Made by a program: the position numbers and the translations under genes. Shown piece after piece: positions 1-40,291 of a DNA stretch of 40,291 bases (its first letter is position 1; each line of letters opens with the position of its first letter). Location of the stretch: sequence record NC_047777.1; one strand, written 5' to 3'. The DNA is from Escherichia phage ZG49. The notes beneath the pieces were generated by a model that worked only from the letters and a program-made list of their open reading frames with translations, was not told where the DNA came from and made no database searches.

Positions 1-401
1 CCTAAGGCTTGCACCGATGGAAGGAGGGTGATATTAATCATAATCCCTCCAATACAGATAGTCACCGACCATAGATACAGGAGGTATGTAGCATATGGCA
101 AAGACCAAAGCTGTACTTAAAGCTCTGGCGACCAATCGAGCTACATACAGGTTTCTTGCTGCTGTTCTACTTGCTGCTGGCGTTACTGCTGGAAGTAAGT
201 GGGTCGGGTGGGTCGAGACTCTCGTATGTTCTCTGGTGTCTCAGTGTAATTAACGCAATCATGGTAACGATTCATGAGCGGAAGACCTAAGGTCAGTACG
301 TGGATAAAGACTCACTCTACTGACCTTAGCTACTGTAGTCAAGGACTTTAGGTAACACCTTAATAGAAGCTCACCTAGGGTCATCCTACTTATTGGTCTA
401 T
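1..401. repeat. Left direct terminal repeat, identical to 39891-40291
   Basis: Bases 1-401 read identically to 39891-40291; window begins and ends exactly on the repeat; T7-like genomes carry direct terminal repeats. Confidence 0.8.
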
Positions 402-1118: not shown

Positions 1119-1309
1119 GTACCACATCAACACGAAACAACGGTGACGACCAACACTGAAACGGTCTACCTGAAGTCCTCTGACTGAAGGGAATGCTCTT
1201 TAACAATCTGGATAAACTCTTAATGTGCGCCGATAGCGACTAACTACAGGGTCTTTGAGTCTACATCTGAAGGCCCTGACTGATAGTCACTAACTAAAGG
1301 ATAAACAAG

Positions 1310-1834
1310 ATGAAACTGATAGGCAAAGGCGCGTTCACTAAGTGCTACCTGAAGGATTGCGGAAAGCGTGTACTTCTGGTCTCTTCAGACCCAATCAAGG
1401 AGTGTATGGCGTGGGGATGGTTCCCTGAGTCTTCACTGTTCCCTGAAGTCAAGATGATTGAGGTGGGCACGTATGAGATGGACTACATGCCACCAACACG
1501 AGGTCTCAAGGCGCATTTAGATGACGACCAGTGGCAACTCTATCAGGTGCTGCGAGATTGCTTCTCACGGTCTCCGGTATTCTCTCGACCTGCTGACCTG
1601 TATCACAAGTGGTACGAGATATTCCAAGCTGCACACGACAGGTCTGAGACCGAGACTGTGCGGGAAGGTCTGATGGATGTACTGATGGCGCTGGACGCTT
1701 GCGCTAACTTCGGGTCTGACATTCAGTTTGAGATAAGCCCACGAAATGTACGGGCTGTGAATGGTAAGCTGATACTAGTGGATTGTTTCTTCCTTGTGTC
1801 CAAGCTGCCAGAGGTGAGGGCGTTAAGATGGTAA
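1310..1834 (+). CDS. gp0.7-like serine/threonine protein kinase (kinase domain only, 174 aa)
   Basis: Glycine-rich loop IGKGAFTKCY resembles T7 gp0.7 LGNGHFSAAY; further similarity (VLRDCF, ILVDCFF); RBS AAGGA upstream; first gene after early promoters. Confidence 0.7.
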   Translation: MKLIGKGAFTKCYLKDCGKRVLLVSSDPIKECMAWGWFPESSLFPEVKMIEVGTYEMDYMPPTRGLKAHLDDDQWQLYQVLRDCFSRSPVFSRPADLYHKWYEIFQAAHDRSETETVREGLMDVLMALDACANFGSDIQFEISPRNVRAVNGKLILVDCFFLVSKLPEVRALRW

Positions 1835-2289
1835 CTTATGGTCTCTGCCAGCACCACGTCACCAACGCCCGGCTTATGGTCGAGACCGGGCAGTTAGACC
1901 ACGAGATGACGACCAGTGGCAACTCTATCAGGTGCTGCGAGATTGCTTCTCACGGTCTCCGGTATTCTCTCGACCTGCTGACCTGTATCACAAGTGGTAC
2001 GAGATATTCCAAGCTGCACACGACAGGTCTGAGACCGAGACTGTGCGGGAAGGTCTGATGGATGTACTGATGGCGCTGGACGCTTGCGCTAACTTCGGGT
2101 CTGACATTCAGTTTGAGATAAGCCCACGAAATGTACGGGCTGTGAATGGTAAGCTGATACTAGTGGATTGTTTCTTCCTTGTGTCCAAGCTGCCAGAGGT
2201 GAGGGCGTTAAGATGGTAACTTATGGTCTCTGCCAGCACCACGTCACCAACGCCCGGCTTATGGTCGAGACCGGGCAGTTAGACCACGA
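1520..2289. repeat. Tandem duplication A: two identical 385-bp copies (1520-1904, 1905-2289)
   Basis: Direct reading; ORFs 1310-1834 and 1932-2219 share an identical C-terminal 95 aa; 1783-2058 and 2168-2362 share their N-terminus. Confidence 0.9.
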
Positions 2290-2599: not shown

Positions 2600-2743
2600 A
2601 TGAGTGTGGGATATTTGGTATGCCTGTCTCCGGTCATCTTTCTGATAGCTTGGGGGATATACGATTGTATTAAACGGAAATCACGATTCATGTGCAACCT
2701 CGCGAACGTCTGGGATATAGCAACTATTGGGAGCAAACTGTAA
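2600..2743 (+). CDS. Small hydrophobic early protein (47 aa)
   Basis: ATG at 2600 directly after previous stop; stop overlaps next start (TAATG). Confidence 0.3.
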   Translation: MSVGYLVCLSPVIFLIAWGIYDCIKRKSRFMCNLANVWDIATIGSKL

Positions 2744-3069
2744 TGAATAAGTCATACGGGATTAATCTGGTACACTCTATGGATGCAGAAATGAACATGT
2801 TGAGCCTACTGGCTACAGGCTACCGTCACGGGACCTCAAGTCACACCATTCGTCAACAGCAGGAGCGCGACCGTGTACTTCAGGCACGACTCCGGGCAGA
2901 GGGCCATAAGTCCGAACTGATGTGTCTGGCGTATGGCGGACGACCGATCACTGACGATGGTAAACTTCTGGTATCAGGCTGGAAGGCGATAGACCAACGG
3001 TCAACCATCAAGCACACGACCAAAGGTGACTTCAGTCATCTTCACGCTAACCCACTGATATGCAAGTAA
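2743..3069 (+). CDS. Hypothetical early protein (109 aa)
   Basis: ATG at 2743 overlapping upstream stop; in frame with track ORF 2692-3069; no recognisable motif. Confidence 0.5.
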   Translation: MNKSYGINLVHSMDAEMNMLSLLATGYRHGTSSHTIRQQQERDRVLQARLRAEGHKSELMCLAYGGRPITDDGKLLVSGWKAIDQRSTIKHTTKGDFSHLHANPLICK

Positions 3070-3076
3070 TTATGAC

Positions 3077-3094
3077 TTAACTATCACTATAGGA
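3077..3094 (+). promoter_or_regulatory. Phage RNAP promoter TTAACTATCACTATAGGA, upstream of the RNAP gene
   Basis: Matches the 18-bp consensus found at 10 other intergenic sites; predicted +1 at the first G of TATAGG. Confidence 0.65.
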
Positions 3095-3166
3095 CTCAAG
3101 GTCTAAGACTCCAAGTGAAAGACCAAAGAGACTCTAAGTGAAAGACTAATAACAAGGACTTTAAGT

Positions 3167-5848
3167 ATGAGCGTCATCTCTATTGACAAACACGACTTCT
3201 CTGATGTGTCGAACGCCATTGAGCCGTTTAACCTGCTGGCTGACCACTACGGGCAAGACCTTGCAGTCAAACAGCTTCAGCTTGAGCATGAGGCATATAC
3301 AGAAGGCGAGCGACGTTTCATCAAGAACCTTGAGCGACAGACTGAGCGCGGGGAACTGGCAGACAATCAGGTCGCCAAGCCTTTGATGCAGACTCTGGTC
3401 CCTAAGATTGCGCAAGCCGTCAGGGAGTGGCACGAAGGCCTAGACGGGAAGCTGTCAACCTCGCGTCCTAGCGTAGCGTTCACCATGTTGAGCACTGAAG
3501 AGAAGGCCGTAAAGGACCGCTCTATGCGCATCTCCTGTGAGTCCGCTGCGGTTATCATACTGAAGGTCATACTCTCCAAGCTGGTCAAGCCTGAAGGGAT
3601 ACCGATTACACCGATGTCCTCCGCGATAGGTCGCACACTTGAGGACGAAATCCGCTTCGGTCGCATCCGTGACAAAGAGAAGGAGCACTTCAAGAAGACG
3701 ATAGCTGAGAACCTGAACAAGCGAGTTGGGGCATCCTACAAGAAAGCCTACATGCAAGCGGTCGAGGCGTCCATGCTGGAGCAAGGCCAACTGGAAGATG
3801 CATGGGGGACTTGGAGTCCTACAGAGGCTGTCCACGTTGGCATCAAGATGCTCGAGATTGTCATCCAGTCAACACAACTGGTCGAGCTTAAGCGGTACGG
3901 TGCTGGTAATGCAGCGGCTGACGTAGAGATGGTCCACCTGTCAGACTTCTGGGTCAAGAAGATGGCACAACGAGGATTCAGCCTTGCGGGTATCGCCCCA
4001 GTCTACCAGCCTTGCGTCGTTCCACCTAAGCCGTGGACTGGTGTCGTAGGTGGTGGGTACTGGGCCAAAGGTCGCAGACCGTTACCATTGATTCGCTTAG
4101 GGTCTAAGTCTGCGGTAGCACGTTATGAAGACGTATACATGCCTGAAGTCTATGACGCTGTGAACATCATTCAGAATACACCTTGGAAAGTTAACAAGAA
4201 GGTTCTGGACGTGGTGAACATGGTCGAGAAGTTGAACAACACGCCTATTGATGACATCCCTCAGATGGAACCGCTGAAGCCTGAGGACTATGCTGGTGAG
4301 ACCGAGGAGGAACTCAAGGCATGGAAGAAGGCTGCTGCTGGTATCTATCGCCGCGAGAAGGCCAGACAGTCACGCAGATTATCACTGAGCTTTATCGTTA
4401 ACCAAGCAAACAAGTTCTCTCAGTTCAAGACCATCTGGTTCCCGTACAACATGGATTGGCGTGGTCGTGTCTACGCTGTCCCGATGTTCAACCCTCAGGG
4501 TAACGACATGCAGAAGGGTCTCCTGACGCTGGCAGTCGGCAAGCCTATTGGTGCTGACGGTTTCAAATGGCTGAAGGTCCACGGTGCAAACTGTGCGGGT
4601 GTCGATAAAGTCACCTTCGATGAGCGCATCAAGTGGGTGGAAGACAACCACGAAAACATCATGGCTGCTGCTAAGGCACCGATGGATAGTATTGAGTGGT
4701 GGGGCAAGTTAGACTCTCCGTTCTGTTTCCTCGCGTTCTGCTTCGAGTATGCTGGCGTAATGCACCACGGCCTGTCTTACTCCTGCTCGCTGCCGATAGC
4801 GTTCGATGGGTCCTGCTCTGGTATTCAGCACTTCAGTGCGATGCTTCGTGACCACATCGGTGGACATTCAGTAAACCTGACGCCATCCGGTAAGGTACAA
4901 GACATCTACCGCATTGTGTCTGACCGCATTGAGGAGGAGCTTAAAGTCCTGCTGATTAACGGTACTGACAACGAGATGGTCACTCACGAGGATAAGAAAA
5001 CTGGTGAGATTACCGAACGTATCAAGCTGGGGACACGAGAGCTGGCCCGTCAGTGGCTGACATACGGTATGTCACGCAAGGTCACTAAGCGTTCAGTCAT
5101 GACTCTGGCATACGGGTCAAAAGAGTACGGCTTCGCAGACCAAGTTTACGAGGACATCGTGATGCCAGCGATTGACTCAGGGTCTGGCGCTATGTTCACT
5201 GAACCAAGCCAAGCGTCTCGCTTCATGGCAAAGATGATTTGGGAAGCTGTGAGTGTGACAGTAGTTGCTGCGGTTGACGCGATGAAGTGGCTTCAAGGTG
5301 CTGCCAAGCTGCTGGCTGCTGAGGTGAAGGACAAGAAGACTGGAGAAATCCTGAAGCCTTGCCTTCCGGTACACTGGGTCACACCTGATGGGTTCCCGGT
5401 CTGGCAGGAGTACCGCAAGAAGGATACCACTCGTCTGAACCTGATGTTCTTAGGGTCATTCAATCTTCAGCCTACCGTCAACAGAGGTACGAAGAAAGAG
5501 CTGGACAAGCACAAGCAGGAGTCAGGCATTAGCCCTAACTTCGTCCACTCACAAGATGGTAGCCACCTGCGGAAGACTGTAGTCCACACTCACCGCAAGT
5601 ATGGCGTGATGTCATTCGCAGTGATTCACGATAGCTTCGGGACCATCCCTGCTGACGCTGAGTATCTGTTCCGTGGTGTCCGTGAGACGATGGTCGAGAC
5701 ATACCGCGATAACGATGTGCTGCTTGACTTCTACGAGCAGTTTGAATACCAGCTTCATGAAAGCCAGCGCGACAAGTTGCCTGAGCTTCCGAAGAAAGGT
5801 AAACTGAATATCGAAGACATCTTGTCTTCAGACTTTGCATTCGCTTAA
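3167..5848 (+). CDS. Single-subunit DNA-directed RNA polymerase (gp1-like, 893 aa)
   Basis: Near-colinear similarity to T7 RNAP; C-terminus ...HSQDGSHLRKTVV...HDSFGT...SDFAFA matches the T7 C-terminus. Confidence 0.97.
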   Translation: MSVISIDKHDFSDVSNAIEPFNLLADHYGQDLAVKQLQLEHEAYTEGERRFIKNLERQTERGELADNQVAKPLMQTLVPKIAQAVREWHEGLDGKLSTSRPSVAFTMLSTEEKAVKDRSMRISCESAAVIILKVILSKLVKPEGIPITPMSSAIGRTLEDEIRFGRIRDKEKEHFKKTIAENLNKRVGASYKKAYMQAVEASMLEQGQLEDAWGTWSPTEAVHVGIKMLEIVIQSTQLVELKRYGAGNAAADVEMVHLSDFWVKKMAQRGFSLAGIAPVYQPCVVPPKPWTGVVGGGYWAKGRRPLPLIRLGSKSAVARYEDVYMPEVYDAVNIIQNTPWKVNKKVLDVVNMVEKLNNTPIDDIPQMEPLKPEDYAGETEEELKAWKKAAAGIYRREKARQSRRLSLSFIVNQANKFSQFKTIWFPYNMDWRGRVYAVPMFNPQGNDMQKGLLTLAVGKPIGADGFKWLKVHGANCAGVDKVTFDERIKWVEDNHENIMAAAKAPMDSIEWWGKLDSPFCFLAFCFEYAGVMHHGLSYSCSLPIAFDGSCSGIQHFSAMLRDHIGGHSVNLTPSGKVQDIYRIVSDRIEEELKVLLINGTDNEMVTHEDKKTGEITERIKLGTRELARQWLTYGMSRKVTKRSVMTLAYGSKEYGFADQVYEDIVMPAIDSGSGAMFTEPSQASRFMAKMIWEAVSVTVVAAVDAMKWLQGAAKLLAAEVKDKKTGEILKPCLPVHWVTPDGFPVWQEYRKKDTTRLNLMFLGSFNLQPTVNRGTKKELDKHKQESGISPNFVHSQDGSHLRKTVVHTHRKYGVMSFAVIHDSFGTIPADAEYLFRGVRETMVETYRDNDVLLDFYEQFEYQLHESQRDKLPELPKKGKLNIEDILSSDFAFA

Positions 5849-6080: not shown

Positions 6081-6156
6081 CATACCTACAGTTACTGGCC
6101 TTGTGGCTGGGAGCACTCGCAGTATTCACTTTAATCCAACGCAGAAGAGGTTAACC

Positions 6157-6174
6157 TAAACTATCACTATAGGA
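6157..6174 (+). promoter_or_regulatory. Phage RNAP promoter TAAACTATCACTATAGGA (phi1.1-like position)
   Basis: Exact consensus; intergenic. Confidence 0.7.
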
Positions 6175-6182
6175 TTAGACTC

Positions 6183-6209
6183 AAGGTCATGACTCAAAGT
6201 CGTGGCCTT
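6183..6209 (+). promoter_or_regulatory. RNA hairpin (12-bp stem with G-U pairs, 3-nt loop); candidate RNase III processing site (R1.1-like)
   Basis: AAGGUCAUGACU / AGUCGUGGCCUU pair fully; motif AGACTCAAGGTCAT...GTGGCCTT..ATGATTA recurs at 13549 and 37381. Confidence 0.5.
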
Positions 6210-6246
6210 CATGATTAACCTAACTCATTCAATCAGGAGCTACACC

Positions 6247-7867: not shown

Positions 7868-8122
7868 ATGTTTAAGAACTTAATGTTCAATCGTTATACC
7901 AGTACATTCCACCTGTCTCACAACCCATTAGCTTGCATTAAGCGCAACGAGAAGCTGGGCTACTTCGGGAAGGCCGTTAAGCTGTCACCTACAGTCTTCG
8001 CTCTGATTACTCCGGGCAAAGCTGAAGAGGCTCGCCAGAAGCGTGCGACCCACGTACCTGTGGTCTACACTAAGTGGCCTCGAGTTCGTCTGTTCGTTGA
8101 GTTCGTGAAGGAGGTGTTCTGA
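7868..8122 (+). CDS. gp1.6-like hypothetical protein (84 aa)
   Basis: RBS AAGGAGG; position between ligase and gp1.7. Confidence 0.5.
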   Translation: MFKNLMFNRYTSTFHLSHNPLACIKRNEKLGYFGKAVKLSPTVFALITPGKAEEARQKRATHVPVVYTKWPRVRLFVEFVKEVF

Positions 8123-8854
8123 TGGGATGTATAGCTTGCTTAGAGAAACCAGAGGTAACTCCTACAGATGACCAACCTTCCACTGAGTCAATCGACGCTG
8201 TCCGCAAGCCGTCCCACTATCAGGTATTTGACGGAGTGGAGTCCATTGAGATTATCGCTCGGTCCATGACTGTCAGCGAGTTCCGTGGGTTCTGCATGGG
8301 TAACGTCCTGAAGTATCGACTCCGAGCTGGTAAGAAGTCCGAGCTGGCTACTATGGAGAAGGACCTGAACAAAGCGGACTTCTATCAGGAGCTGTTCGAC
8401 CTGAGCTGGGCTACTTCGGGAAGGCCGTTAAGCTGTCACCTACAGTCTTCGCTCTGATTACTCCGGGCAAAGCTGAAGAGGCTCGCCAGAAGCGTGCGAC
8501 CCACGTACCTGTGGTCTACACTAAGTGGCCTCGAGTTCGTCTGTTCGTTGAGTTCGTGAAGGAGGTGTTCTGATGGGATGTATAGCTTGCTTAGAGAAAC
8601 CAGAGGTAACTCCTACAGATGACCAACCTTCCACTGAGTCAATCGACGCTGTCCGCAAGCCGTCCCACTATCAGGTATTTGACGGAGTGGAGTCCATTGA
8701 GATTATCGCTCGGTCCATGACTGTCAGCGAGTTCCGTGGGTTCTGCATGGGTAACGTCCTGAAGTATCGACTCCGAGCTGGTAAGAAGTCCGAGCTGGCT
8801 ACTATGGAGAAGGACCTGAACAAAGCGGACTTCTATCAGGAGCTGTTCGACCTG
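7953..8854. repeat. Tandem duplication B: two identical 451-bp copies (7953-8403, 8404-8854)
   Basis: Direct reading; ORFs 8122-8457 and 8573-8881 share their first 94 aa. Confidence 0.9.
8122..8457 (+). pseudogene. Chimeric gp1.7 copy created by duplication B (native C-terminus replaced by out-of-frame gp1.6 sequence)
   Basis: Identical to 8573-8881 until ...QELFDL, then diverges at the duplication junction. Confidence 0.6.
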
Positions 8855-9976: not shown

Positions 9977-10426
9977 ATGAGTAGAGGACATCAAGTAGGT
10001 GCTTATCGCTCTGGACTCGAAGCAAAGAACCAAGAGTGGCTTGAGAAGAATGGCGTAAAAGCTGAATACGAAGCATATAAAATAGGCTACGTAGTACCAT
10101 CCAGCGACCACTTCTACACACCAGATTTTATCCTTCCTAACGGTATCATCGTGGAGACCAAAGGTCTCTTCGATAGTGATGACCGTAAGAAGCACCTTCT
10201 GGTACGAGAACAGCACCCTGAGTTAGACATTCGGTTCGTGTTCTCAAGTTCACGCTCCAAGTTATACAAGGGGTCTCCGACCACGTATGGCGCATGGTGC
10301 GAAAAGAACGGCTTTAAGTTTGCCGACAAGTTTATCCCGGTTGAGTGGCTGAGAGAGGTGACTGTACGTCTACCTTCAGGTATTCTCATCCCCAAGAAGA
10401 AAGGAGTTAAGGATATTCGCACCTAA
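9977..10426 (+). CDS. Endonuclease I (gp3-like Holliday junction resolvase, 149 aa from ATG 9977)
   Basis: Strong similarity to T7 gp3 (GAYRSGLE, YTPDF, PNGI.VETKGL..SDDRKKHLL.REQHPELDIR.VFSSSR.KLYKGSPT); track ORF starts earlier at 9920. Confidence 0.85.
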   Translation: MSRGHQVGAYRSGLEAKNQEWLEKNGVKAEYEAYKIGYVVPSSDHFYTPDFILPNGIIVETKGLFDSDDRKKHLLVREQHPELDIRFVFSSSRSKLYKGSPTTYGAWCEKNGFKFADKFIPVEWLREVTVRLPSGILIPKKKGVKDIRT

Positions 10427-11009
10427 AGCGAGACCCTTAAGTTTATGGCTGAAAAATACTCAGTAAGTGAGACAACCATAAGTCGAATCAGGAACAACAA
10501 GAGGTGGAAATAATAATGGGAAGTAAAGTACAATTCATGCCACGCAAGTCAACTGACGCTATCTTCGTTCACTGTTCGGCTACCAAGCCAGAGATGGACA
10601 TCGGGGTAGAGACCATCCGTATGGTGTTCTCAAGTTCACGCTCCAAGTTATACAAGGGGTCTCCGACCACGTATGGCGCATGGTGCGAAAAGAACGGCTT
10701 TAAGTTTGCCGACAAGTTTATCCCGGTTGAGTGGCTGAGAGAGGTGACTGTACGTCTACCTTCAGGTATTCTCATCCCCAAGAAGAAAGGAGTTAAGGAT
10801 ATTCGCACCTAAAGCGAGACCCTTAAGTTTATGGCTGAAAAATACTCAGTAAGTGAGACAACCATAAGTCGAATCAGGAACAACAAGAGGTGGAAATAAT
10901 AATGGGAAGTAAAGTACAATTCATGCCACGCAAGTCAACTGACGCTATCTTCGTTCACTGTTCGGCTACCAAGCCAGAGATGGACATCGGGGTAGAGACC
11001 ATCCGTATG
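10238..11009. repeat. Tandem duplication C: two identical 386-bp copies (10238-10623, 10624-11009)
   Basis: Direct reading; ORF 10504-10812 has the lysozyme N-terminus fused to the endonuclease I C-terminus. Confidence 0.9.
10504..10812 (+). pseudogene. Chimeric ORF: lysozyme N-terminal 40 aa fused to endonuclease I C-terminal 62 aa
   Basis: N-terminus identical to 10890-11360 and C-terminus identical to 9920-10426; switch at the duplication junction. Confidence 0.6.
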
Positions 11010-13380: not shown

Positions 13381-13545
13381 TTGCTAAGAAAACTTAAAGC
13401 TCGCTACCATCGGTTCATGTACAAATGGTGGAGTGATGAAGCAACCTGCCTGTCCAACATTCTGGGAGACCAGAGGTTCGACTCTAAGGCATGGAAGAAA
13501 GCTAACCGGAAGTTTATGTATCACTTCTTGCGTACAGACTTCTAG
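13381..13545 (+). CDS. Small basic ORF (about 54 aa), gp4.3/4.5-like position; start uncertain
   Basis: TTG at 13381 with RBS AAGGAGGA; in frame with track ORF 13348-13545. Confidence 0.25.
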
Positions 13546-13555
13546 GTCTAGACTC

Positions 13556-13580
13556 AAGGTCATTCACATCGAGTGGCCTT
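13556..13580 (+). promoter_or_regulatory. RNA hairpin (10-bp stem, 5-nt loop); candidate RNase III site (R4.7-like)
   Basis: AAGGUCAUUC / GAGUGGCCUU; same flanking motif as 6183 and 37388. Confidence 0.45.
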
Positions 13581-13608
13581 TATGATTAGACTAAACGGAG
13601 GATTAACC

Positions 13609-19210: not shown

Positions 19211-20779
19211 ATGGCTGAACGTGAAGGGTTCGCTGCTGAAGGAGCCAAAGCGGTCTATGACCGACTGAAGAACGGTAGACAGCCATATGAGACACGCGCT
19301 CAGAACTGTGCTGCTGTCACTATCCCGTCACTGTTTCCTAAGGAGTCCGACAACTCGTCTACTGAGTACACAACTCCGTGGCAAGCTGTAGGTGCTCGCT
19401 GTTTGAACAACTTGGCTGCAAAGCTGATGTTGGCATTATTCCCTCAGTCACCGTGGATGCGACTGACAGTCTCCGAATATGAGGCCAAGACCTTGAGTCA
19501 GGACTCAGAGGCTGCTGCTCGTGTTGACGAAGGGCTGGCTATGGTCGAGCGTGTGTTGATGGCCTACATGGAGACTAACAGTTTCCGTGTCCCACTGTTC
19601 GAAGCTCTGAAGCAGCTTATCGTCTCCGGTAACTGTCTGCTCTACATTCCAGAGCCTGAACAAGGTACTTACAGTCCTATGCGAATGTACCGCTTAGTGT
19701 CCTACGTTGTTCAACGTGATGCTTTCGGTAATATCTTGCAGATTGTGACTCTCGACAAGGTAGCGTTTAGTGCTCTACCGGAAGACGTTAAGTCACAACT
19801 CAACGCAGACGACTATGAGCCTGACACAGAGCTGGAAGTATATACGCACATCTACCGTCAAGACGACGAGTATCTACGTTATGAAGAAGTGGAAGGCATT
19901 GAGGTAGCAGGGACCGAGGGTTCCTACCCACTGACTGCATGTCCATACATCCCGGTACGAATGGTTCGACTGGATGGTGAAGACTATGGTCGTTCTTACT
20001 GCGAGGAGTATCTGGGAGACCTGAACTCGCTGGAGACGATTACAGAAGCTATCACCAAAATGGCTAAGGTAGCCTCCAAGGTGGTGGGCCTCGTTAACCC
20101 GAACGGTATCACGCAACCTCGTCGTCTGAACAAGGCGGCTACAGGTGAGTTCGTTGCCGGTCGCGTTGAGGACATCAACTTCCTGCAACTGACTAAGGGT
20201 CAGGACTTTACGATTGCCAAGTCGGTGGCTGATGCTATCGAGCAACGTTTAGGCTGGGCCTTCCTTCTTAATAGTGCTGTTCAGCGTAATGCCGAGCGAG
20301 TCACTGCTGAAGAGATTCGTTATGTTGCTGGCGAACTGGAGGCGACCTTAGGTGGCGTGTACTCAGTACAATCCCAAGAGCTTCAGTTACCTATCGTCCG
20401 TGTGCTGATGAACCAACTTCAGTCTGCTGGCATGATTCCTGACCTTCCGAAAGAAGCGGTAGAGCCTACTGTCTCCACTGGTCTGGAAGCGTTAGGTCGT
20501 GGTCAGGACTTGGAGAAGCTAACTCAGGCGGTTAACATGATGACTGGTCTTCAGCCGCTATCTCAGGACCCGGACATCAACTTGCCGACCCTTAAGCTAC
20601 GACTCCTGAACGCTCTGGGTATCGACACCGCTGGCCTACTCCTGACGCAAGACGAGAAGATTCAGCGCATGGCTGAGCAGTCGTCTCAACAGGCAGTTGT
20701 CCAAGGTGCTAGTGCTGCTGGTGCTAACATGGGTGCTGCTGTAGGTCAGGGAGCTGGTGAGGACATGGCTCAAGCCTAA
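19211..20779 (+). CDS. Head-to-tail connector / portal protein (gp8-like)
   Basis: 522 aa versus T7 gp8 536 aa; conserved position before scaffold and capsid; RBS AAGGAGG. Confidence 0.9.
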   Translation: MAEREGFAAEGAKAVYDRLKNGRQPYETRAQNCAAVTIPSLFPKESDNSSTEYTTPWQAVGARCLNNLAAKLMLALFPQSPWMRLTVSEYEAKTLSQDSEAAARVDEGLAMVERVLMAYMETNSFRVPLFEALKQLIVSGNCLLYIPEPEQGTYSPMRMYRLVSYVVQRDAFGNILQIVTLDKVAFSALPEDVKSQLNADDYEPDTELEVYTHIYRQDDEYLRYEEVEGIEVAGTEGSYPLTACPYIPVRMVRLDGEDYGRSYCEEYLGDLNSLETITEAITKMAKVASKVVGLVNPNGITQPRRLNKAATGEFVAGRVEDINFLQLTKGQDFTIAKSVADAIEQRLGWAFLLNSAVQRNAERVTAEEIRYVAGELEATLGGVYSVQSQELQLPIVRVLMNQLQSAGMIPDLPKEAVEPTVSTGLEALGRGQDLEKLTQAVNMMTGLQPLSQDPDINLPTLKLRLLNALGIDTAGLLLTQDEKIQRMAEQSSQQAVVQGASAAGANMGAAVGQGAGEDMAQA

Positions 20780-20794
20780 ACTATCACTATAGGA
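20777..20794 (+). promoter_or_regulatory. Phage RNAP promoter TAAACTATCACTATAGGA (phi9-like)
   Basis: Exact consensus. Confidence 0.7.
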
Positions 20795-20875
20795 ACTTAG
20801 ACAAGATTCACAAAGCATTAGGCCGGGTGAGACTCCCGGTCGGTTCCTATCATCAACTTAAAGGAGAATGACTCA

Positions 20876-33576: not shown

Positions 33577-35637
33577 ATGTCCACGATTACACAATTCCCT
33601 TCAGGAAACACTCAGTACAGGATTGAGTTCGACTACCTAGCCAGAACGTTTGTTGTTGTTACGCTGGTGAATAGCTCTAACCCTACCCTGAACCGTGTAC
33701 TGGAAGTTGGTCGAGATTACCGATTCCTTAACCCAACGATGATTGAGATGTTGGTTGACCAATCAGGTTTCGACATCGTTCGTATTCACCGTCAGACTGG
33801 AACTGACTTAGTGGTAGACTTCAGGAATGGCTCAGTGTTGACAGCTAGTGACCTGACCAATTCAGAGCTTCAGGCTATCCATATTGCAGAAGAAGGTCGA
33901 GACCAAACGGTTGACTTAGCGAAGGAATATGCCGATGCTGCTGGTAGCTCTGCTGGCAACGCTAAGGATAGCGAGGACGAAGCACGCCGAATCGCTGCGA
34001 GTATCAGGGAAGCTGGTCTAATTGGCTATATTACCCGTCGCTCCTTCGAGAAAGGCTACAACGTTACAACATGGAGCGAGGTCCTGCTATGGGAAGAGGA
34101 TGGTGATTATTACCGCTGGGATGGTACGCTTCCAAAGAACGTTCCTGCTGGTTCAACTCCTGAAACTTCCGGTGGGATTGGATTAGGTGCGTGGGTTAGT
34201 GTTGGTGATGCTGCTTTAAGAAGTCAGATTTCAAACCCGGAAGGGGCAATACTCTACCCGGAATTGCAGATGGCAAGATGGCGTGATGAGGGTGATGTTC
34301 GAGGCTGGGGTGCTAAAGGGGATGGTGTAACAGATAGTACGGAGAATATAGCTGCTTCACTAAATTCTCAAAAAGCTGTCGTAGCATCAGAAGGTGTATT
34401 CTCTAGTTCTGGTATTAATAGTAATTACTGTAACTTAGACGGTAGAGGCAGTGGTGTACTAAGTCACCGTTCAAGTACAGGTAACTACTTAGTATTTAAC
34501 AATCTACGCTCAGGTCGCTTAAGTAATATTACGGTAGAAAGTAATAAGGCGACCGATACCACTCAAGGGCAGCAGGTATCTCTTGCTGGTGGCAGTGATG
34601 TTACTATAAGTGATGTTAATTTCTCAAACGTTAAGGGCGCTGGTTTCAGTTTAATCACATACCCTAATGATGCACCCTCTGATGGGCTTATGATTAAAGG
34701 CATTCGAGGTAGCTACTCCGGCTATGCTACTAATAAGGCGGCTGGATGCATACTTGCTGATTCCTCAGTTAACTCCCTCATAAATAACGTCATTGCTAAG
34801 AACTACCCTCAGTTCGGGGCTGTAGAACTGAAAGGTACAGCCAGTTATAACATAGTCAGCAATGTTATAGGGGCAGACTGCCAGCATGTAACTTACAACG
34901 GTACAGAAGGGTCAATAGCTCCCTCTAACAACCTTATCAATGGGGTAGTGGCTAATAATCCTAAATATGCAGCGGTTGTTGCAGGCAAAGGTAGTACCAA
35001 CTTAATCTCCGATGTGCTTGTAGATTTCTCAACCTCTGATGCTAGGCAGGCTCATGGTGTTACAGTAGAAGGTTCTGATAACGTCATAAATAATGTGCTT
35101 ATGTCAGGGTGTGATGGTACTAACTCTTTAGGGCAAGCTCAGACTGCTACAATTGCGCGCTTTATAGATACGGCTAATAACAACTATGCGTCTGTATTTC
35201 CTAGCTACAGTGCTACAGGTGTTATTACTTTCGAATCAGGTTCTACCCGTAACTTCGTAGAGGTAAAGCATCCGGGAAGGAGAAACGACCTTCTCAGTGC
35301 TACTGGTACTATTGAAGGTAAAGTTACTATTGACGGCACTAGTAATAGCAACGTAGTGCACGCTCCTGCATTAGGACAGTACATAGGCAGTATGTCCGGT
35401 AGGTTCGAATGGCGGATTAAGTCCATGTCACTTCCGTCAGGCGTTCTTACCTCGGCTGATAAGTACAGAATGCTTGGGGATGGTGCTGTGTCATTAGCTG
35501 TAGGTGGGGGTACTTCTTCTCAAGTTCGCCTATTTACTTCTGATGGTACTTATCGGACAGTATCACTCACCAACGGTAACGTGCGTCTTCCTACCAGTAG
35601 CACAGGTTATTTGCAGTTAGGTTCTAGCTCCCTCTAA
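33577..35637 (+). CDS. Tailspike (gp17-like), N-terminal 686-aa fragment truncated by tandem duplication D
   Basis: N-terminal 150 aa resemble the T7 gp17 adaptor domain (EFDYLARTFVVVTL, DYRF, VDFRNGSVL.ASDL, IAEEGRD); then a beta-helix-like region (WGAKGDGVTD); reading frame breaks at the duplication junction at 35625. Confidence 0.8.
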   Translation: MSTITQFPSGNTQYRIEFDYLARTFVVVTLVNSSNPTLNRVLEVGRDYRFLNPTMIEMLVDQSGFDIVRIHRQTGTDLVVDFRNGSVLTASDLTNSELQAIHIAEEGRDQTVDLAKEYADAAGSSAGNAKDSEDEARRIAASIREAGLIGYITRRSFEKGYNVTTWSEVLLWEEDGDYYRWDGTLPKNVPAGSTPETSGGIGLGAWVSVGDAALRSQISNPEGAILYPELQMARWRDEGDVRGWGAKGDGVTDSTENIAASLNSQKAVVASEGVFSSSGINSNYCNLDGRGSGVLSHRSSTGNYLVFNNLRSGRLSNITVESNKATDTTQGQQVSLAGGSDVTISDVNFSNVKGAGFSLITYPNDAPSDGLMIKGIRGSYSGYATNKAAGCILADSSVNSLINNVIAKNYPQFGAVELKGTASYNIVSNVIGADCQHVTYNGTEGSIAPSNNLINGVVANNPKYAAVVAGKGSTNLISDVLVDFSTSDARQAHGVTVEGSDNVINNVLMSGCDGTNSLGQAQTATIARFIDTANNNYASVFPSYSATGVITFESGSTRNFVEVKHPGRRNDLLSATGTIEGKVTIDGTSNSNVVHAPALGQYIGSMSGRFEWRIKSMSLPSGVLTSADKYRMLGDGAVSLAVGGGTSSQVRLFTSDGTYRTVSLTNGNVRLPTSSTGYLQLGSSSL

Positions 35638-36333
35638 CAACCTTATCAATGGGGTAGTGGCTAATAATCCTAAATATGCAGCGGTTGTTGCAGGCAAAGG
35701 TAGTACCAACTTAATCTCCGATGTGCTTGTAGATTTCTCAACCTCTGATGCTAGGCAGGCTCATGGTGTTACAGTAGAAGGTTCTGATAACGTCATAAAT
35801 AATGTGCTTATGTCAGGGTGTGATGGTACTAACTCTTTAGGGCAAGCTCAGACTGCTACAATTGCGCGCTTTATAGATACGGCTAATAACAACTATGCGT
35901 CTGTATTTCCTAGCTACAGTGCTACAGGTGTTATTACTTTCGAATCAGGTTCTACCCGTAACTTCGTAGAGGTAAAGCATCCGGGAAGGAGAAACGACCT
36001 TCTCAGTGCTACTGGTACTATTGAAGGTAAAGTTACTATTGACGGCACTAGTAATAGCAACGTAGTGCACGCTCCTGCATTAGGACAGTACATAGGCAGT
36101 ATGTCCGGTAGGTTCGAATGGCGGATTAAGTCCATGTCACTTCCGTCAGGCGTTCTTACCTCGGCTGATAAGTACAGAATGCTTGGGGATGGTGCTGTGT
36201 CATTAGCTGTAGGTGGGGGTACTTCTTCTCAAGTTCGCCTATTTACTTCTGATGGTACTTATCGGACAGTATCACTCACCAACGGTAACGTGCGTCTTCC
36301 TACCAGTAGCACAGGTTATTTGCAGTTAGGTTC
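34916..36333. repeat. Tandem duplication D: two identical 709-bp copies (34916-35624, 35625-36333) inside the tailspike gene
   Basis: Direct reading; ORFs 33577-35637 and 35657-36817 share about 230 identical residues. Confidence 0.9.
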
Positions 36334-37116: not shown

Positions 37117-37376
37117 CGCAGATGGACTTAGAGAAGTTCCTCTTGATGCTTGATACTGAACGTGCTCGACTCATGCTGCAAGACCTGCGGGATGACACTA
37201 AGCGTTCACCTCAGCTCTACAACGCCATTGAGAAGCTGCTTGCTCGTCACAACTTTGTGTTAAGCAAGGTGTCCGTGGACGAGAAGACTCTGGCTGATAT
37301 GGAGGCCCTGAACGCAGAGTACGATAAGGTGCTTTCAGTGACTGAGGATAATGACACCGGGTATGGTGTTCAATAA
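37113..37376 (+). CDS. Terminase small subunit (gp18-like, 87 aa)
   Basis: Size and position (T7 gp18 89 aa); RBS AAGGAGGTGG. Confidence 0.7.
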   Translation: MTQMDLEKFLLMLDTERARLMLQDLRDDTKRSPQLYNAIEKLLARHNFVLSKVSVDEKTLADMEALNAEYDKVLSVTEDNDTGYGVQ

Positions 37377-37387
37377 GTGTTAGACTC

Positions 37388-37414
37388 AAGGTCATTACTA
37401 TATGTAGTGGCCTT
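37388..37414 (+). promoter_or_regulatory. RNA hairpin (10-bp stem); candidate RNase III site (R18.5-like)
   Basis: AAGGUCAUUA / UAGUGGCCUU; same flanking motif as 6183 and 13556. Confidence 0.45.
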
Positions 37415-37477
37415 TATGGTTAACACTAACTAGTGGAGGCGACTCTACGTGAAATCTGATAAACCGGGAGGACAACT

Positions 37478-39687: not shown

Positions 39688-39783
39688 CTGAATGAATAAC
39701 TATAGGCGAAAACTGAATTAATAAGCAGTTAGTAACCTATAGTTACTACCAGTCTAACCTACTGTTTTACAAGGAGTTTGGAC

Positions 39784-39802
39784 TTAACTATCACTATAGG
39801 GA
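39784..39802 (+). promoter_or_regulatory. Phage RNAP promoter TTAACTATCACTATAGGGA (phiOR-like)
   Basis: Consensus match about 90 bp before the right terminal repeat. Confidence 0.7.
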
Positions 39803-39890
39803 AGACCCCCGGTTACTTATAGTATTACTGTAGTGAATATACATATGCAGACTTTATGCAAGACCTTAGGAGGCAGACTCCGAGTTCTTA

Positions 39891-40291
39891 CCTAAGGCTT
39901 GCACCGATGGAAGGAGGGTGATATTAATCATAATCCCTCCAATACAGATAGTCACCGACCATAGATACAGGAGGTATGTAGCATATGGCAAAGACCAAAG
40001 CTGTACTTAAAGCTCTGGCGACCAATCGAGCTACATACAGGTTTCTTGCTGCTGTTCTACTTGCTGCTGGCGTTACTGCTGGAAGTAAGTGGGTCGGGTG
40101 GGTCGAGACTCTCGTATGTTCTCTGGTGTCTCAGTGTAATTAACGCAATCATGGTAACGATTCATGAGCGGAAGACCTAAGGTCAGTACGTGGATAAAGA
40201 CTCACTCTACTGACCTTAGCTACTGTAGTCAAGGACTTTAGGTAACACCTTAATAGAAGCTCACCTAGGGTCATCCTACTTATTGGTCTAT
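39891..40291. repeat. Right direct terminal repeat, identical to 1-401
   Basis: Direct comparison of both ends. Confidence 0.8.

What the first reader, a model, noticed from the sequence alone, without database searches (positions are those of the whole stretch)
3077..3166. Phage promoter directly upstream of the RNAP gene
A consensus promoter sits 73 bp upstream of the RNAP start, implying the polymerase could transcribe its own gene. I do not recall a class II/III promoter immediately before gene 1 in T7. It is followed by two near-identical 19-20 bp direct repeats (AGACTC[C/T]AAGTGAAAGAC at about 3104-3146) of unknown function.
Basis: partly seen in the sequence, partly recalled or inferred. 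Interest (0 to 1): 0.5.

Follow-up and report, generated by a model that had tools for sequence, protein, structure and literature searches.

The report
Phage promoter before its own polymerase gene
This K1F-like (T7-family) phage carries one of its own polymerase's promoters directly in front of the polymerase gene, followed by a tightly conserved repeat-containing leader; the promoter is real but is already annotated in close relatives, so it is a tidy detail rather than a discovery.

Summary
The window is a Kayfunavirus (K1F-like relative of T7). Bases 3076-3094 (CTTAACTATCACTATAGGA, predicted start G3092) match the genome's own promoter consensus with no mismatch; it is one of 11 copies and the leftmost. 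The site lies 75 nt upstream of the 893-aa RNA polymerase gene (3167-5848).

It is present throughout the genus and follows each lineage's promoter type. CCCT-type phages have CCCT here too, and one of them has a T3-like D748/R756 specificity loop. So self-transcription of gene 1 is well supported, though no transcript data were available.

The site is not new. The identical promoter is annotated "phi" in EcoDS1 and "predicted promoter" in CR44b, and a mapped equivalent exists in Pseudomonas phage LUZ100. T7, 13a, BA14 and K11 instead have an RNase III-type hairpin at this position and a phiOL promoter further left.

The two repeats are a 23-bp tandem duplication (3106-3128 / 3129-3151, 19/23). 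They sit in a leader of six RGACY-initiated units. The leader's first 24 nt copy the 5' half of the phage's promoter/RNase III cassette, but it fails a covariance model of such sites. It is as conserved as amino-acid-determining codon positions. Its function remains inferred.

The parts
2692..3069 (+). Last early ORF before the polymerase gene (gp0.38 homologue). Its stop codon lies 6 nt before the promoter.
   Evidence: ORF list. The homologous CDS is named gp0.38 in EcoDS1 and PE3-1. No Pfam family matches. It is highly variable among relatives, with pi about 0.20.
3076..3094 (+). Phage-polymerase promoter 'phi1' (-16 to +3), CTTAACTATCACTATAGGA, with predicted +1 at G3092. It is the leftmost phage promoter of the genome.
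   Evidence: 0 mismatches to the consensus; 11 sites in the window against 0 expected. The identical sequence is annotated 'phi' in EcoDS1 at 2244-2266. It follows lineage-specific promoter variants. pi = 0.004.
3092..3166 (+). 75-nt leader of the phi1 transcript. It consists of six units that begin with RGACY at 3092, 3106, 3120, 3129, 3143 and 3156 (spacing 14, 14, 9, 14, 13).
   Evidence: Highest RGACY density in the window. The same six-unit layout is seen in five diverged subgroups. pi = 0.015, against 0.134 at polymerase third codon positions.
3093..3116 (+). GACTCAAGGTCTAAGACTCCAAGT, a copy of the 5' half and top of the phage's promoter-adjacent RNase III hairpin (compare 6178-6201).
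   Evidence: Local alignment to the phi1.1 leader gives 21/24 identities; 0 of 2000 shuffles reach that score. ACTCAAGGTC occurs exactly four times in the window, and the other three copies lie in canonical hairpins.
3100..3124 (+). Predicted small hairpin: GGUCU / AGACC (3100-3104 with 3120-3124), capped by ACU-CCA-AGU (3108-3116).
   Evidence: It appears in the MFE of both the phi1-start and the read-through RNAs. Variation among relatives falls in loops or gives G-U. There are no compensatory changes and z-scores are weak.
3106..3128 (+). Repeat copy 1: AGACTCCAAGTGAAAGACCAAAG.
   Evidence: 3106-3126 as reference copy. This copy diverges in the Enterobacter (C) subgroup.
3129..3151 (+). Repeat copy 2: AGACTCTAAGTGAAAGACTAATA (19/23 to copy 1). 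Bases 3128-3141 are partly complementary to the promoter core 3084-3097.
   Evidence: Only one variable site (3134) was found in 28 haplotypes. Duplex energy with the promoter core is -8.9 kcal/mol, reached by 29 of 300 shuffles.
3154..3166 (+). Ribosome-binding region: Shine-Dalgarno AAGGA (3154-3158) plus a fourth partial repeat copy GACTTTAAGT (3157-3166).
   Evidence: Sequence. It is invariant in 28 haplotypes.
3167..5848 (+). Gene 1, the T7-type single-subunit RNA polymerase (893 aa).
   Evidence: Pfam RNA_pol E = 1.7e-106 and RPOL_N E = 4.7e-15. The specificity loop has N748/N756 in T7 numbering.

Best explanation
Bases 3076-3094 are a working class-II-type promoter for the phage's own RNA polymerase.

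Proposed sequence of events. Early in infection, host polymerase starting at the left-end promoters reads through genes 0.3 to 0.38 and gene 1, and the first phage polymerase is made. That polymerase then initiates at G3092 and makes more gene-1 mRNA, together with the downstream class I/II genes. This gives positive feedback, and it keeps polymerase mRNA synthesis going after host polymerase is shut off. In this genus it is the leftmost phage promoter. It takes the place of two features of T7, 13a, BA14 and K11: the phiOL promoter, and the R1 RNase III-type hairpin that sits before gene 1.

The 75-nt leader is a remodelled copy of the phage's own 'promoter + RNase III hairpin' cassette. Its first 24 nt retain the cassette's 5' half and top. 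The canonical 3' half has been lost. A 23-bp tandem duplication produced the two repeats. The leader is under strong purifying selection and most probably acts in the mRNA, as a small 5'-proximal hairpin followed by an open, A-rich ribosome-loading stretch.

What is shown and what is inferred. Shown: the consensus match, conservation across the genus, co-variation with polymerase specificity, sequence constraint on the leader, and homology of its 5' part to the cassette. Inferred: that initiation actually occurs at 3092, the feedback role, and what the leader does.
For: - Consensus: 0 mismatches to the 19-mer; 11 sites, all on the + strand, against 0 expected.
- Conservation: present at the same position in 42 distinct relatives from phage, IMG/VR and metagenome collections.
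- Co-variation: the Enterobacter IJM phage has AACCCTCACTATAGG at all its promoters, including this one. Kc166A has the CACTGTAGG form, which it shares with its other early promoters. EcpYZU01, which has CCCT at this site, carries D748/R756 in the specificity loop, where the K1F type carries N748/N756.
- Constraint: promoter pi = 0.004, leader 0.015, SD-to-ATG 0, against 0.134 at polymerase third codon positions.
- Independent annotation: the same site is annotated as a phage promoter in EcoDS1 and CR44b and noted in a 2026 Kayfunavirus paper (PMC13298934).
- Precedent: LUZ100 has a mapped phage promoter directly upstream of its polymerase gene, with positive feedback proposed (PMC10134795).
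- Enzyme and promoter pair: K1F polymerase with its cognate promoter works and is orthogonal in vivo (PMC12218169).
- Leader origin: 21/24 identity to the phi1.1/R1.1 cassette, reached by 0 of 2000 shuffles.
- Sister genera: phiOL plus an R1-type hairpin (model hits in T7, 13a and BA14; seen only in the fold for K11), and no phi before gene 1.
Against: - No transcript 5'-end data were available for any Kayfunavirus.
- The leader's predicted folding is no better than that of shuffled sequence (z from +0.46 to -1.5).
- No compensatory base changes support the hairpin: 0 of 19 pairs.
- Nothing explains why every base of repeat copy 2 is conserved.
- In the Dev2 subgroup this promoter alone carries A at -2 (CACTAAAGG). 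It may therefore be weak there, or constrained by something other than promoter strength.
- The feedback role is an inference from position only.
Confidence: 0.65

Rival explanations
1. The region is a composite promoter and RNase III processing site, the functional counterpart of T7 R1. In read-through transcripts made by host polymerase, the RNA copy of the promoter core (3084-3097) pairs with repeat copy 2 (3128-3141). Copy 1 forms the top of the hairpin. The result is an interrupted helix of about 22 bp that RNase III cuts, separating the 0.38 and gene-1 mRNAs. Transcripts starting at 3092 lack the 5' arm and escape cutting.
For: - The map position is the same as the R1 hairpin in T7, 13a, BA14 and K11.
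- GGACUCAAGGUC is identical to the 5' half of canonical sites.
- The MFE of read-through RNA forms this hairpin in subgroups A, B, C and D.
- In the Dev2 subgroup the outer stem is a perfect 10-11 bp (AUCACUAAAG / CUUUAGUGAU). The unique -2A promoter variant is what makes it perfect. Its duplex energy is -12.8 kcal/mol, reached by 2 of 300 shuffles.
- T7 R6.5 and R13 also embed promoters in their hairpins (R6.5 is found by the model).
Against: - A covariance model built from 20 T7 and Kayfunavirus sites finds five sites in the window but gives no hit on the leader, even at E <= 10 with filters off.
- The conserved 3' half, GGCCUUUAUGAU, which by analogy with T7 sites (from memory, not tested here) would carry the cut site, is absent.
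- In the window's own subgroup the promoter/copy-2 duplex is not exceptional: 29 of 300 shuffles match it, and phi9 and phiOR have stronger downstream complements.
- There is no covariation.
- Subgroup E lacks the pairing.
Confidence: 0.2
2. The repeats are operator sites for a protein, acting on the DNA or on the mRNA, that restrains the natural 'autogene'. Such a protein could limit initiation from phi1 or translation of gene 1.
For: - Base-by-base conservation of copy 2 and of the SD region, without any structural covariation.
- The 11-mer AAGTGAAAGAC is found only in this leader, and at least one copy is kept in subgroups A, B and C.
- A fourth partial copy overlaps the ribosome-binding site.
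- From memory: a cloned T7 polymerase gene under its own promoter is unstable unless tightly controlled (Dubendorff and Studier 1991).
Against: - Spacing between copies differs among subgroups (23 versus 14 nt), and copy 1 is poorly conserved in subgroup C. This argues against a fixed dimeric binder.
- No candidate regulator is annotated in EcoDS1 or Dev2.
- There is no direct evidence for any binding.
Confidence: 0.1
3. The promoter mainly serves a purpose other than making mRNA, as has been proposed for phiOL and phiOR in T7. For example, it could prime DNA replication or help drive genome entry. The purine-rich repeat leader would then be part of an origin-like region.
For: - The genus lacks phiOL, and this is its leftmost phage promoter.
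- The leader RNA is purine-rich, and GACCA at 3121 matches a T7 primase recognition core (the primase specificity is from memory).
Against: - The site sits exactly one leader length in front of a gene with a good ribosome-binding site.
- Only one canonical primase-type site is present.
- No AT-rich unwinding stretch was seen.
- Nothing in the data points to replication.
Confidence: 0.05

Closest known systems
Annotated 'phi' promoter upstream of gene 1 in Escherichia phage EcoDS1 (EU734172, 2244-2266), and 'predicted promoter' in Citrobacter phage CR44b (HG818823, 1814-1836)
   Same: It is the orthologous site. The promoter sequence, the position after gp0.38/0.42 and the leader are identical.
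   Different: Nothing of substance differs. The window has C instead of T at 3134, in repeat copy 2. PE3-1 labels the same site 'host RNAP promoter', which the consensus match contradicts.
LUZ100 phi1, a phage-specific promoter directly upstream of the polymerase gene of a T7-like Pseudomonas phage (PMC10134795)
   Same: A phage-polymerase promoter lies immediately before the polymerase gene, and positive feedback after initial host transcription was proposed.
   Different: In LUZ100 the start site was mapped experimentally, and the promoter is thought to be repressed by a MarR-like regulator in a temperate-like module. No such regulator or integrase is annotated in EcoDS1 or Dev2, and there is no transcript mapping here.
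T7 intergenic region between genes 0.7 and 1: minor E. coli promoter C at 3113 and RNase III site R1 (about 3138)
   Same: The map position and length class are the same. The Kayfunavirus leader keeps the ACUCAAGGUC-type 5' motif of T7-group RNase III sites.
   Different: T7 has no phage promoter here and has a canonical hairpin (model score 37.8 bits). The window has a phage promoter and no model hit.
T7 phiOL, the leftmost T7 promoter at 405
   Same: It is the leftmost phage-polymerase promoter, rightward-facing and upstream of gene 1 with no phage terminator between them, so it too allows the polymerase to read its own gene.
   Different: phiOL lies about 2.8 kb upstream, before the host promoters. 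Kayfunaviruses lack it and instead place the leftmost promoter 75 nt before gene 1.
Promoter + RNase III hairpin cassettes of the T7 group (for example window 6156-6223; T7 phi1.1A/R1.1)
   Same: A promoter is followed within a few bases by GACUCAAGGUC and then GACUC-AAGU. Identity is 21/24.
   Different: The 3' half of the hairpin is missing, the upper stem has a 3x3 internal loop, and a 23-bp duplication follows.

Membership tests
T7-group single-subunit RNA polymerase promoter | Match to the genome's own ~19-23 bp promoter consensus, including the -12 to -8 specificity region and the TATA-GG start | tested here: met
   0 mismatches to CTWAACTATCACTATAGGR; 11 sites against 0 expected.
T7-group single-subunit RNA polymerase promoter | Same orientation as the genes, and located in or at the edge of an intergenic region | tested here: met
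   On the + strand, 6 nt after the stop of ORF 2692-3069 and 75 nt before the ATG at 3167.
T7-group single-subunit RNA polymerase promoter | Co-evolves with the cognate polymerase's specificity | tested here: met
   Lineages with CCCT-type promoters have CCCT at this site. EcpYZU01 has D748/R756 where K1F-type phages have N748/N756.
T7-group single-subunit RNA polymerase promoter | Primary transcript 5' end at +1 that depends on the phage polymerase | not testable with these tools
   No transcriptome of a Kayfunavirus was found in the held literature.
T7-type RNase III processing site | Match to a covariance model of the hairpin (lower stem, internal loop, ~10-bp upper stem) | tested here: not met
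   Model R1 (20 sites, 16 pairs, 10 of them covarying) finds sites at 1234, 2357, 6170, 13543 and 37375, but nothing at 3080-3150 at E <= 10 with filters off.
T7-type RNase III processing site | Conserved 5' motif ACUCAAGGUC | tested here: met
   Exact match at 3094-3103.
T7-type RNase III processing site | Conserved 3' motif GGCCUUUAUGAU | tested here: not met
   The leader has AGACCAAAGAGACU instead.
T7-type RNase III processing site | Cleavage by RNase III | not testable with these tools
   This needs an in vitro or in vivo assay.
Self-transcribed polymerase gene with repressor control (LUZ100-type) | Phage promoter directly upstream of the polymerase gene | tested here: met
   compare.
Self-transcribed polymerase gene with repressor control (LUZ100-type) | Adjacent MarR-like regulator and integrase module | tested here: not met
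   No such genes appear among the annotated features of EcoDS1 or Dev2. The window itself was not scanned for them.
Structured regulatory leader RNA | Folding better than shuffled sequence and/or compensatory base changes | tested here: inconclusive
   z from +0.46 to -1.5. 97% of cells are paired, but 0 of 19 pairs show a double change. No Rfam family matches.

The most novel reading that the evidence does not exclude
The leader is a dedicated control element for a natural T7-type 'autogene'. The promoter lies inside one arm of a hairpin, so host-made read-through transcripts and phage-made transcripts of gene 1 would differ in structure. They would then differ in processing, stability or translation. 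Alternatively, the conserved AAGTGAAAGAC repeats could bind a factor that caps the positive feedback.
Probability: 0.12. Interest if true: 0.55.

Novelty: already known. Interest (0 to 1): 0.25.

Why it matters
The finding shows that one whole genus of T7 relatives wires its polymerase gene differently from T7. The RNase III site before gene 1 and the left-end phiOL promoter are replaced by a phage promoter placed 75 nt before the gene, so the polymerase should amplify its own mRNA.

This is useful background for people who engineer K1F-type polymerase/promoter pairs or K1F-based therapeutic phages. It also offers a natural example of how a self-activating polymerase gene is tolerated. The promoter itself is already in public annotations. 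Only the constrained, repeat-bearing leader appears undescribed in the records and papers searched here, and its role is modest unless it proves to be a feedback control.

Tried and rejected
- Leader RNA as a significantly stable structure: not supported. z = +0.46 for 3092-3180, -0.21 for 3040-3200, and -0.6 to -1.5 in five subgroups.
- Rfam: no family matches at gathering thresholds in the whole window. There is only a chance snoRNA hit at E = 0.61 in 2950-3300.
- Canonical RNase III site: rejected by the covariance model.
- Covariation in the proposed hairpin: none. The pairs are invariant, so the test says nothing either way.
- A 'switch' in which phi1-start and read-through transcripts differ in ribosome-binding-site accessibility: no consistent difference across six representatives.
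- Special pairing between promoter core and downstream sequence in the window: not exceptional. 29 of 300 shuffles match it, and phi9 and phiOR are stronger.
- Tandem Repeats Finder: no array above score 30. There are too few copies and they are too diverged.
- Host sigma-70 promoter or intrinsic terminator in 2800-3400: none.
- Mini-ORFs starting at the GTGs inside the repeats (3115, 3138): no Shine-Dalgarno sequence, and the reading frames are not conserved in subgroup B. Dropped, by inspection.
- Repeats as neutral duplication debris: contradicted by pi = 0.015, against 0.134 at silent-type positions.
- Primary K1F genome paper and the Chen and Schneider promoter paper: not held in the library.

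Full report
**What the window is.** The 1.1 kb around the finding matches 218 phage records, nearly all Kayfunavirus (K1F-like Studiervirinae), at 80-99% identity. A 221-bp query across the finding matches 228 records. ORF 3167-5848 (893 aa) is a T7-type single-subunit RNA polymerase (Pfam RNA_pol E = 1.7e-106 and RPOL_N). The ORF ending at 3069 corresponds to gp0.38 of EcoDS1 and PE3-1.

**Checking the promoter.**
- TCACTATAGGA with up to 1 mismatch occurs 10 times, all on the + strand, against 0.93 expected.
- The extended 19-mer CTWAACTATCACTATAGGR finds 11 sites at up to 3 mismatches, against 0 in 100 shuffles.
- The copy at 3076-3094 has 0 mismatches and is the leftmost.
- By analogy with T7, +1 is G3092. 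That is 75 nt before the ATG at 3167.
- No sigma-70-like promoter or intrinsic terminator lies in 2800-3400.

**Checking the repeats.**
- The repeat finder gives 3106-3126 and 3129-3149 at 19/21 identity with a spacing of 23.
- Read head to tail, this is a 23-bp tandem duplication: AGACTCCAAGTGAAAGACCAAAG followed by AGACTCTAAGTGAAAGACTAATA, at 19/23.
- Weaker copies start at 3093 and at 3157. The latter overlaps the ribosome-binding region.
- The whole leader can be read as six units beginning RGACY, at 3092, 3106, 3120, 3129, 3143 and 3156.
- RGACY density here is 6 per 75 nt. This is the highest in the window; the mean is 0.54 and the next-highest value is 4.
- AAGTGAAAGAC occurs nowhere else in the window. 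In relatives it is essentially confined to this leader, apart from one extra copy inside the polymerase gene of EcoDS1.

**Is the promoter used?** There are no transcript data, so the argument is comparative.

1. *Position.* I collected the region from GenBank phages, IMG/VR contigs and metagenome contigs. This gave 74 loci and 42 distinct sequences. All of them have a promoter at this position.
2. *Lineage-specific variants.*
   - In Enterobacter phage 04_vB_Eclo_IJM every promoter reads AAACCCTCACTATAGG, and so does the copy before gene 1.
   - In Kosakonia phage Kc166A the early promoters read CACTGTAGGA, and so does this one.
3. *Polymerase specificity loop.* EcpYZU01 has CCCTCACTGTAGG at this site. 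Its polymerase carries D and R at the positions equivalent to T7 N748 and R756. The window, Dev2 and Kc166A carry N and N. That these residues read the -11 to -8 bases, and that T3 differs from T7 by N748D, is from my memory of the T7/T3 literature.
4. *Sequence constraint.* Among 28 haplotypes of the window's own subgroup, diversity is as follows:

| Region | Mean pi |
|---|---|
| Promoter (3076-3094) | 0.004 |
| Leader (3095-3153) | 0.015 |
| SD to ATG (3154-3166) | 0 |
| Polymerase codon position 1 | 0.014 |
| Polymerase codon position 2 | 0.009 |
| Polymerase codon position 3 | 0.134 |

5. *The enzyme and its promoter.* The K1F polymerase and its cognate promoter are used as an orthogonal pair in vivo (PMC12218169).

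A site that follows the polymerase's specificity and is this conserved is very likely a working promoter.

**Is it new?** No.
- EcoDS1 (EU734172) annotates the identical sequence at 2244-2266 as promoter 'phi'. It is one of 12 phage promoters in that record, and no phiOL is annotated.
- CR44b annotates it as 'predicted promoter'.
- PE3-1 labels it 'host RNAP promoter', which the consensus match contradicts.
- A 2026 paper on another Kayfunavirus lists the CTWAACTATCACTATAGG repeats, including one at the 3' end of the gene immediately before the polymerase gene (PMC13298934).
- In Pseudomonas phage LUZ100 a phage-specific promoter directly upstream of the polymerase gene was mapped by ONT-cappable-seq, and a positive feedback loop was proposed (PMC10134795).

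**Comparison with T7 and other genera.**
- T7 has only the minor E. coli promoter C (3113) between genes 0.7 and 1.
- 13a, BA14 and K11 have phiOL near the left end and no phage promoter before gene 1. Their records (EU734171, EU734173, EU734174) are adjacent in accession to EcoDS1 (EU734172) and use the same annotation style.
- All four have a strong hairpin of the RNase III type just before gene 1.
- T7's phiOL at 405 faces gene 1 with no phage terminator between them. Self-transcription is therefore possible in T7 too. What differs in Kayfunavirus is where the promoter sits.

**What is the leader?**
- The bases right after +1, GACTCAAGGTC, are the hallmark 5' half of T7-group RNase III sites.
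- ACTCAAGGTC occurs exactly four times in the window. The copies at 6179, 13552 and 37384 lie in canonical hairpins.
- I aligned 20 such sites from T7 and four Kayfunaviruses. That gave 16 pairs, 10 of them with compensatory changes. I built a covariance model from them.
- With filters off, the model finds five sites in the window: 37375-37430 (71 bits), 13543-13596 (70), 6170-6223 (62.5), 2357-2411 (37) and 1234-1294 (22). It finds nothing in the leader, even at E <= 10.
- The model does generalise. It detects T7 R6.5 and the R1 sites of 13a and BA14, none of which were in the training set.
- The leader is therefore not a canonical RNase III site.
- Its first 24 nt nevertheless align at 21/24 with the start of the phi1.1/R1.1 cassette (GACTCAAGGTC-ATGACTCAAAGT). 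None of 2000 shuffles reach that score. Beyond that point the similarity is not significant.
- The simplest history, which is an inference, has three steps. A promoter + hairpin cassette was copied in front of gene 1. Its 3' half decayed. In the K1F and Enterobacter lineages a 23-bp piece then duplicated. The Dev2 and Kc166A lineages have the same units in a different arrangement.

**Structure tests.**
- A small hairpin (3100-3104 with 3120-3124, capped by 3108-3116) appears in all folds.
- Natural variation fits it. Sites 3098, 3099, 3111, 3112 and 3125 are unpaired, and 3123 C>T gives a G-U pair. Only 3097 breaks a pair.
- Read-through RNA can extend the helix by pairing the promoter core (3084-3097) with repeat copy 2 (3128-3141).
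- In the Dev2 subgroup this outer stem is a perfect 10-11 bp. It depends on a -2A promoter variant found at no other Dev2 promoter. Its duplex energy is -12.8 kcal/mol, reached by 2 of 300 shuffles.
- The support is weak overall:
  - Fold z-scores range from +0.46 to -1.5.
  - In the window the duplex is matched by 29 of 300 shuffles.
  - Other promoters (phi9, phiOR) have stronger downstream complements.
  - The formal pair count shows 97% pairing but no double changes in 19 pairs.
- A model in which the two kinds of transcript differ in ribosome-binding-site exposure found no consistent difference.

**Conclusion.** The promoter is real. It most likely gives the polymerase positive feedback on its own gene, and it replaces the phiOL/R1 arrangement of sister genera. 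The repeats are a duplication inside a strongly constrained leader derived from a promoter/RNase III cassette. What the leader does (stabilising hairpin plus ribosome loading, residual processing, or a binding site) is not settled by computation. Because the promoter is already annotated and the concept has a mapped precedent, I rate the finding as already known and of low to moderate interest.

Noticed in passing
window 1519-2288, 7953-8854, 10228-10999, 34916-36333: Four perfect or near-perfect tandem duplications: periods 385, 451, 386 and 709 bp, each with at least 300 nt at 99-100% identity. They fall in the early region, near genes 1.6-1.8, near genes 3-3.5, and in the tail-fibre region. 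ECG4 (first 5.9 kb), EcoDS1 and Dev2 show no such repeats. They are either real in this isolate or assembly artefacts.
   Followed up: partly
window 1-300 and 39891-40190 (possibly 1-401 and 39891-40291): The direct terminal repeat is at least 300 bp, and the spacing of 39890 implies up to 401 bp. That is longer than the 178-bp terminal repeat annotated in EcoDS1.
   Followed up: no
window 1234-1294, 2357-2411, 6170-6223, 13543-13596, 37375-37430: Five T7-type RNase III hairpins are detected by a covariance model built here. None are annotated in the Kayfunavirus records seen. In Dev2 and Kc166A the site before gene 5 is directly preceded by a phage promoter, which the window lacks.
   Followed up: partly
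window 39783-39850 and 20776-20840: The phiOR and phi9 promoters are each followed, within about 40 nt, by a 9-10 bp complement of the promoter core (-12.4 and -11.1 kcal/mol, reached by 3 and 8 of 300 shuffles). Promoter-containing hairpins in read-through RNA may be a recurring theme, as at T7 R6.5 and R13.
   Followed up: no
L005 (PE3-1, KJ748011) 2874-2896: The orthologous promoter is annotated there as 'host RNAP promoter', which looks like a mislabel.
   Followed up: no
L079 (EcpYZU01) polymerase residues equivalent to T7 748 and 756: Within one genus the polymerase specificity loop switches from N/N (K1F type, promoter CTAT at -11 to -8) to D/R (T3-like, promoter CCCT). This is a compact natural example of polymerase and promoter co-evolving.
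   Followed up: partly
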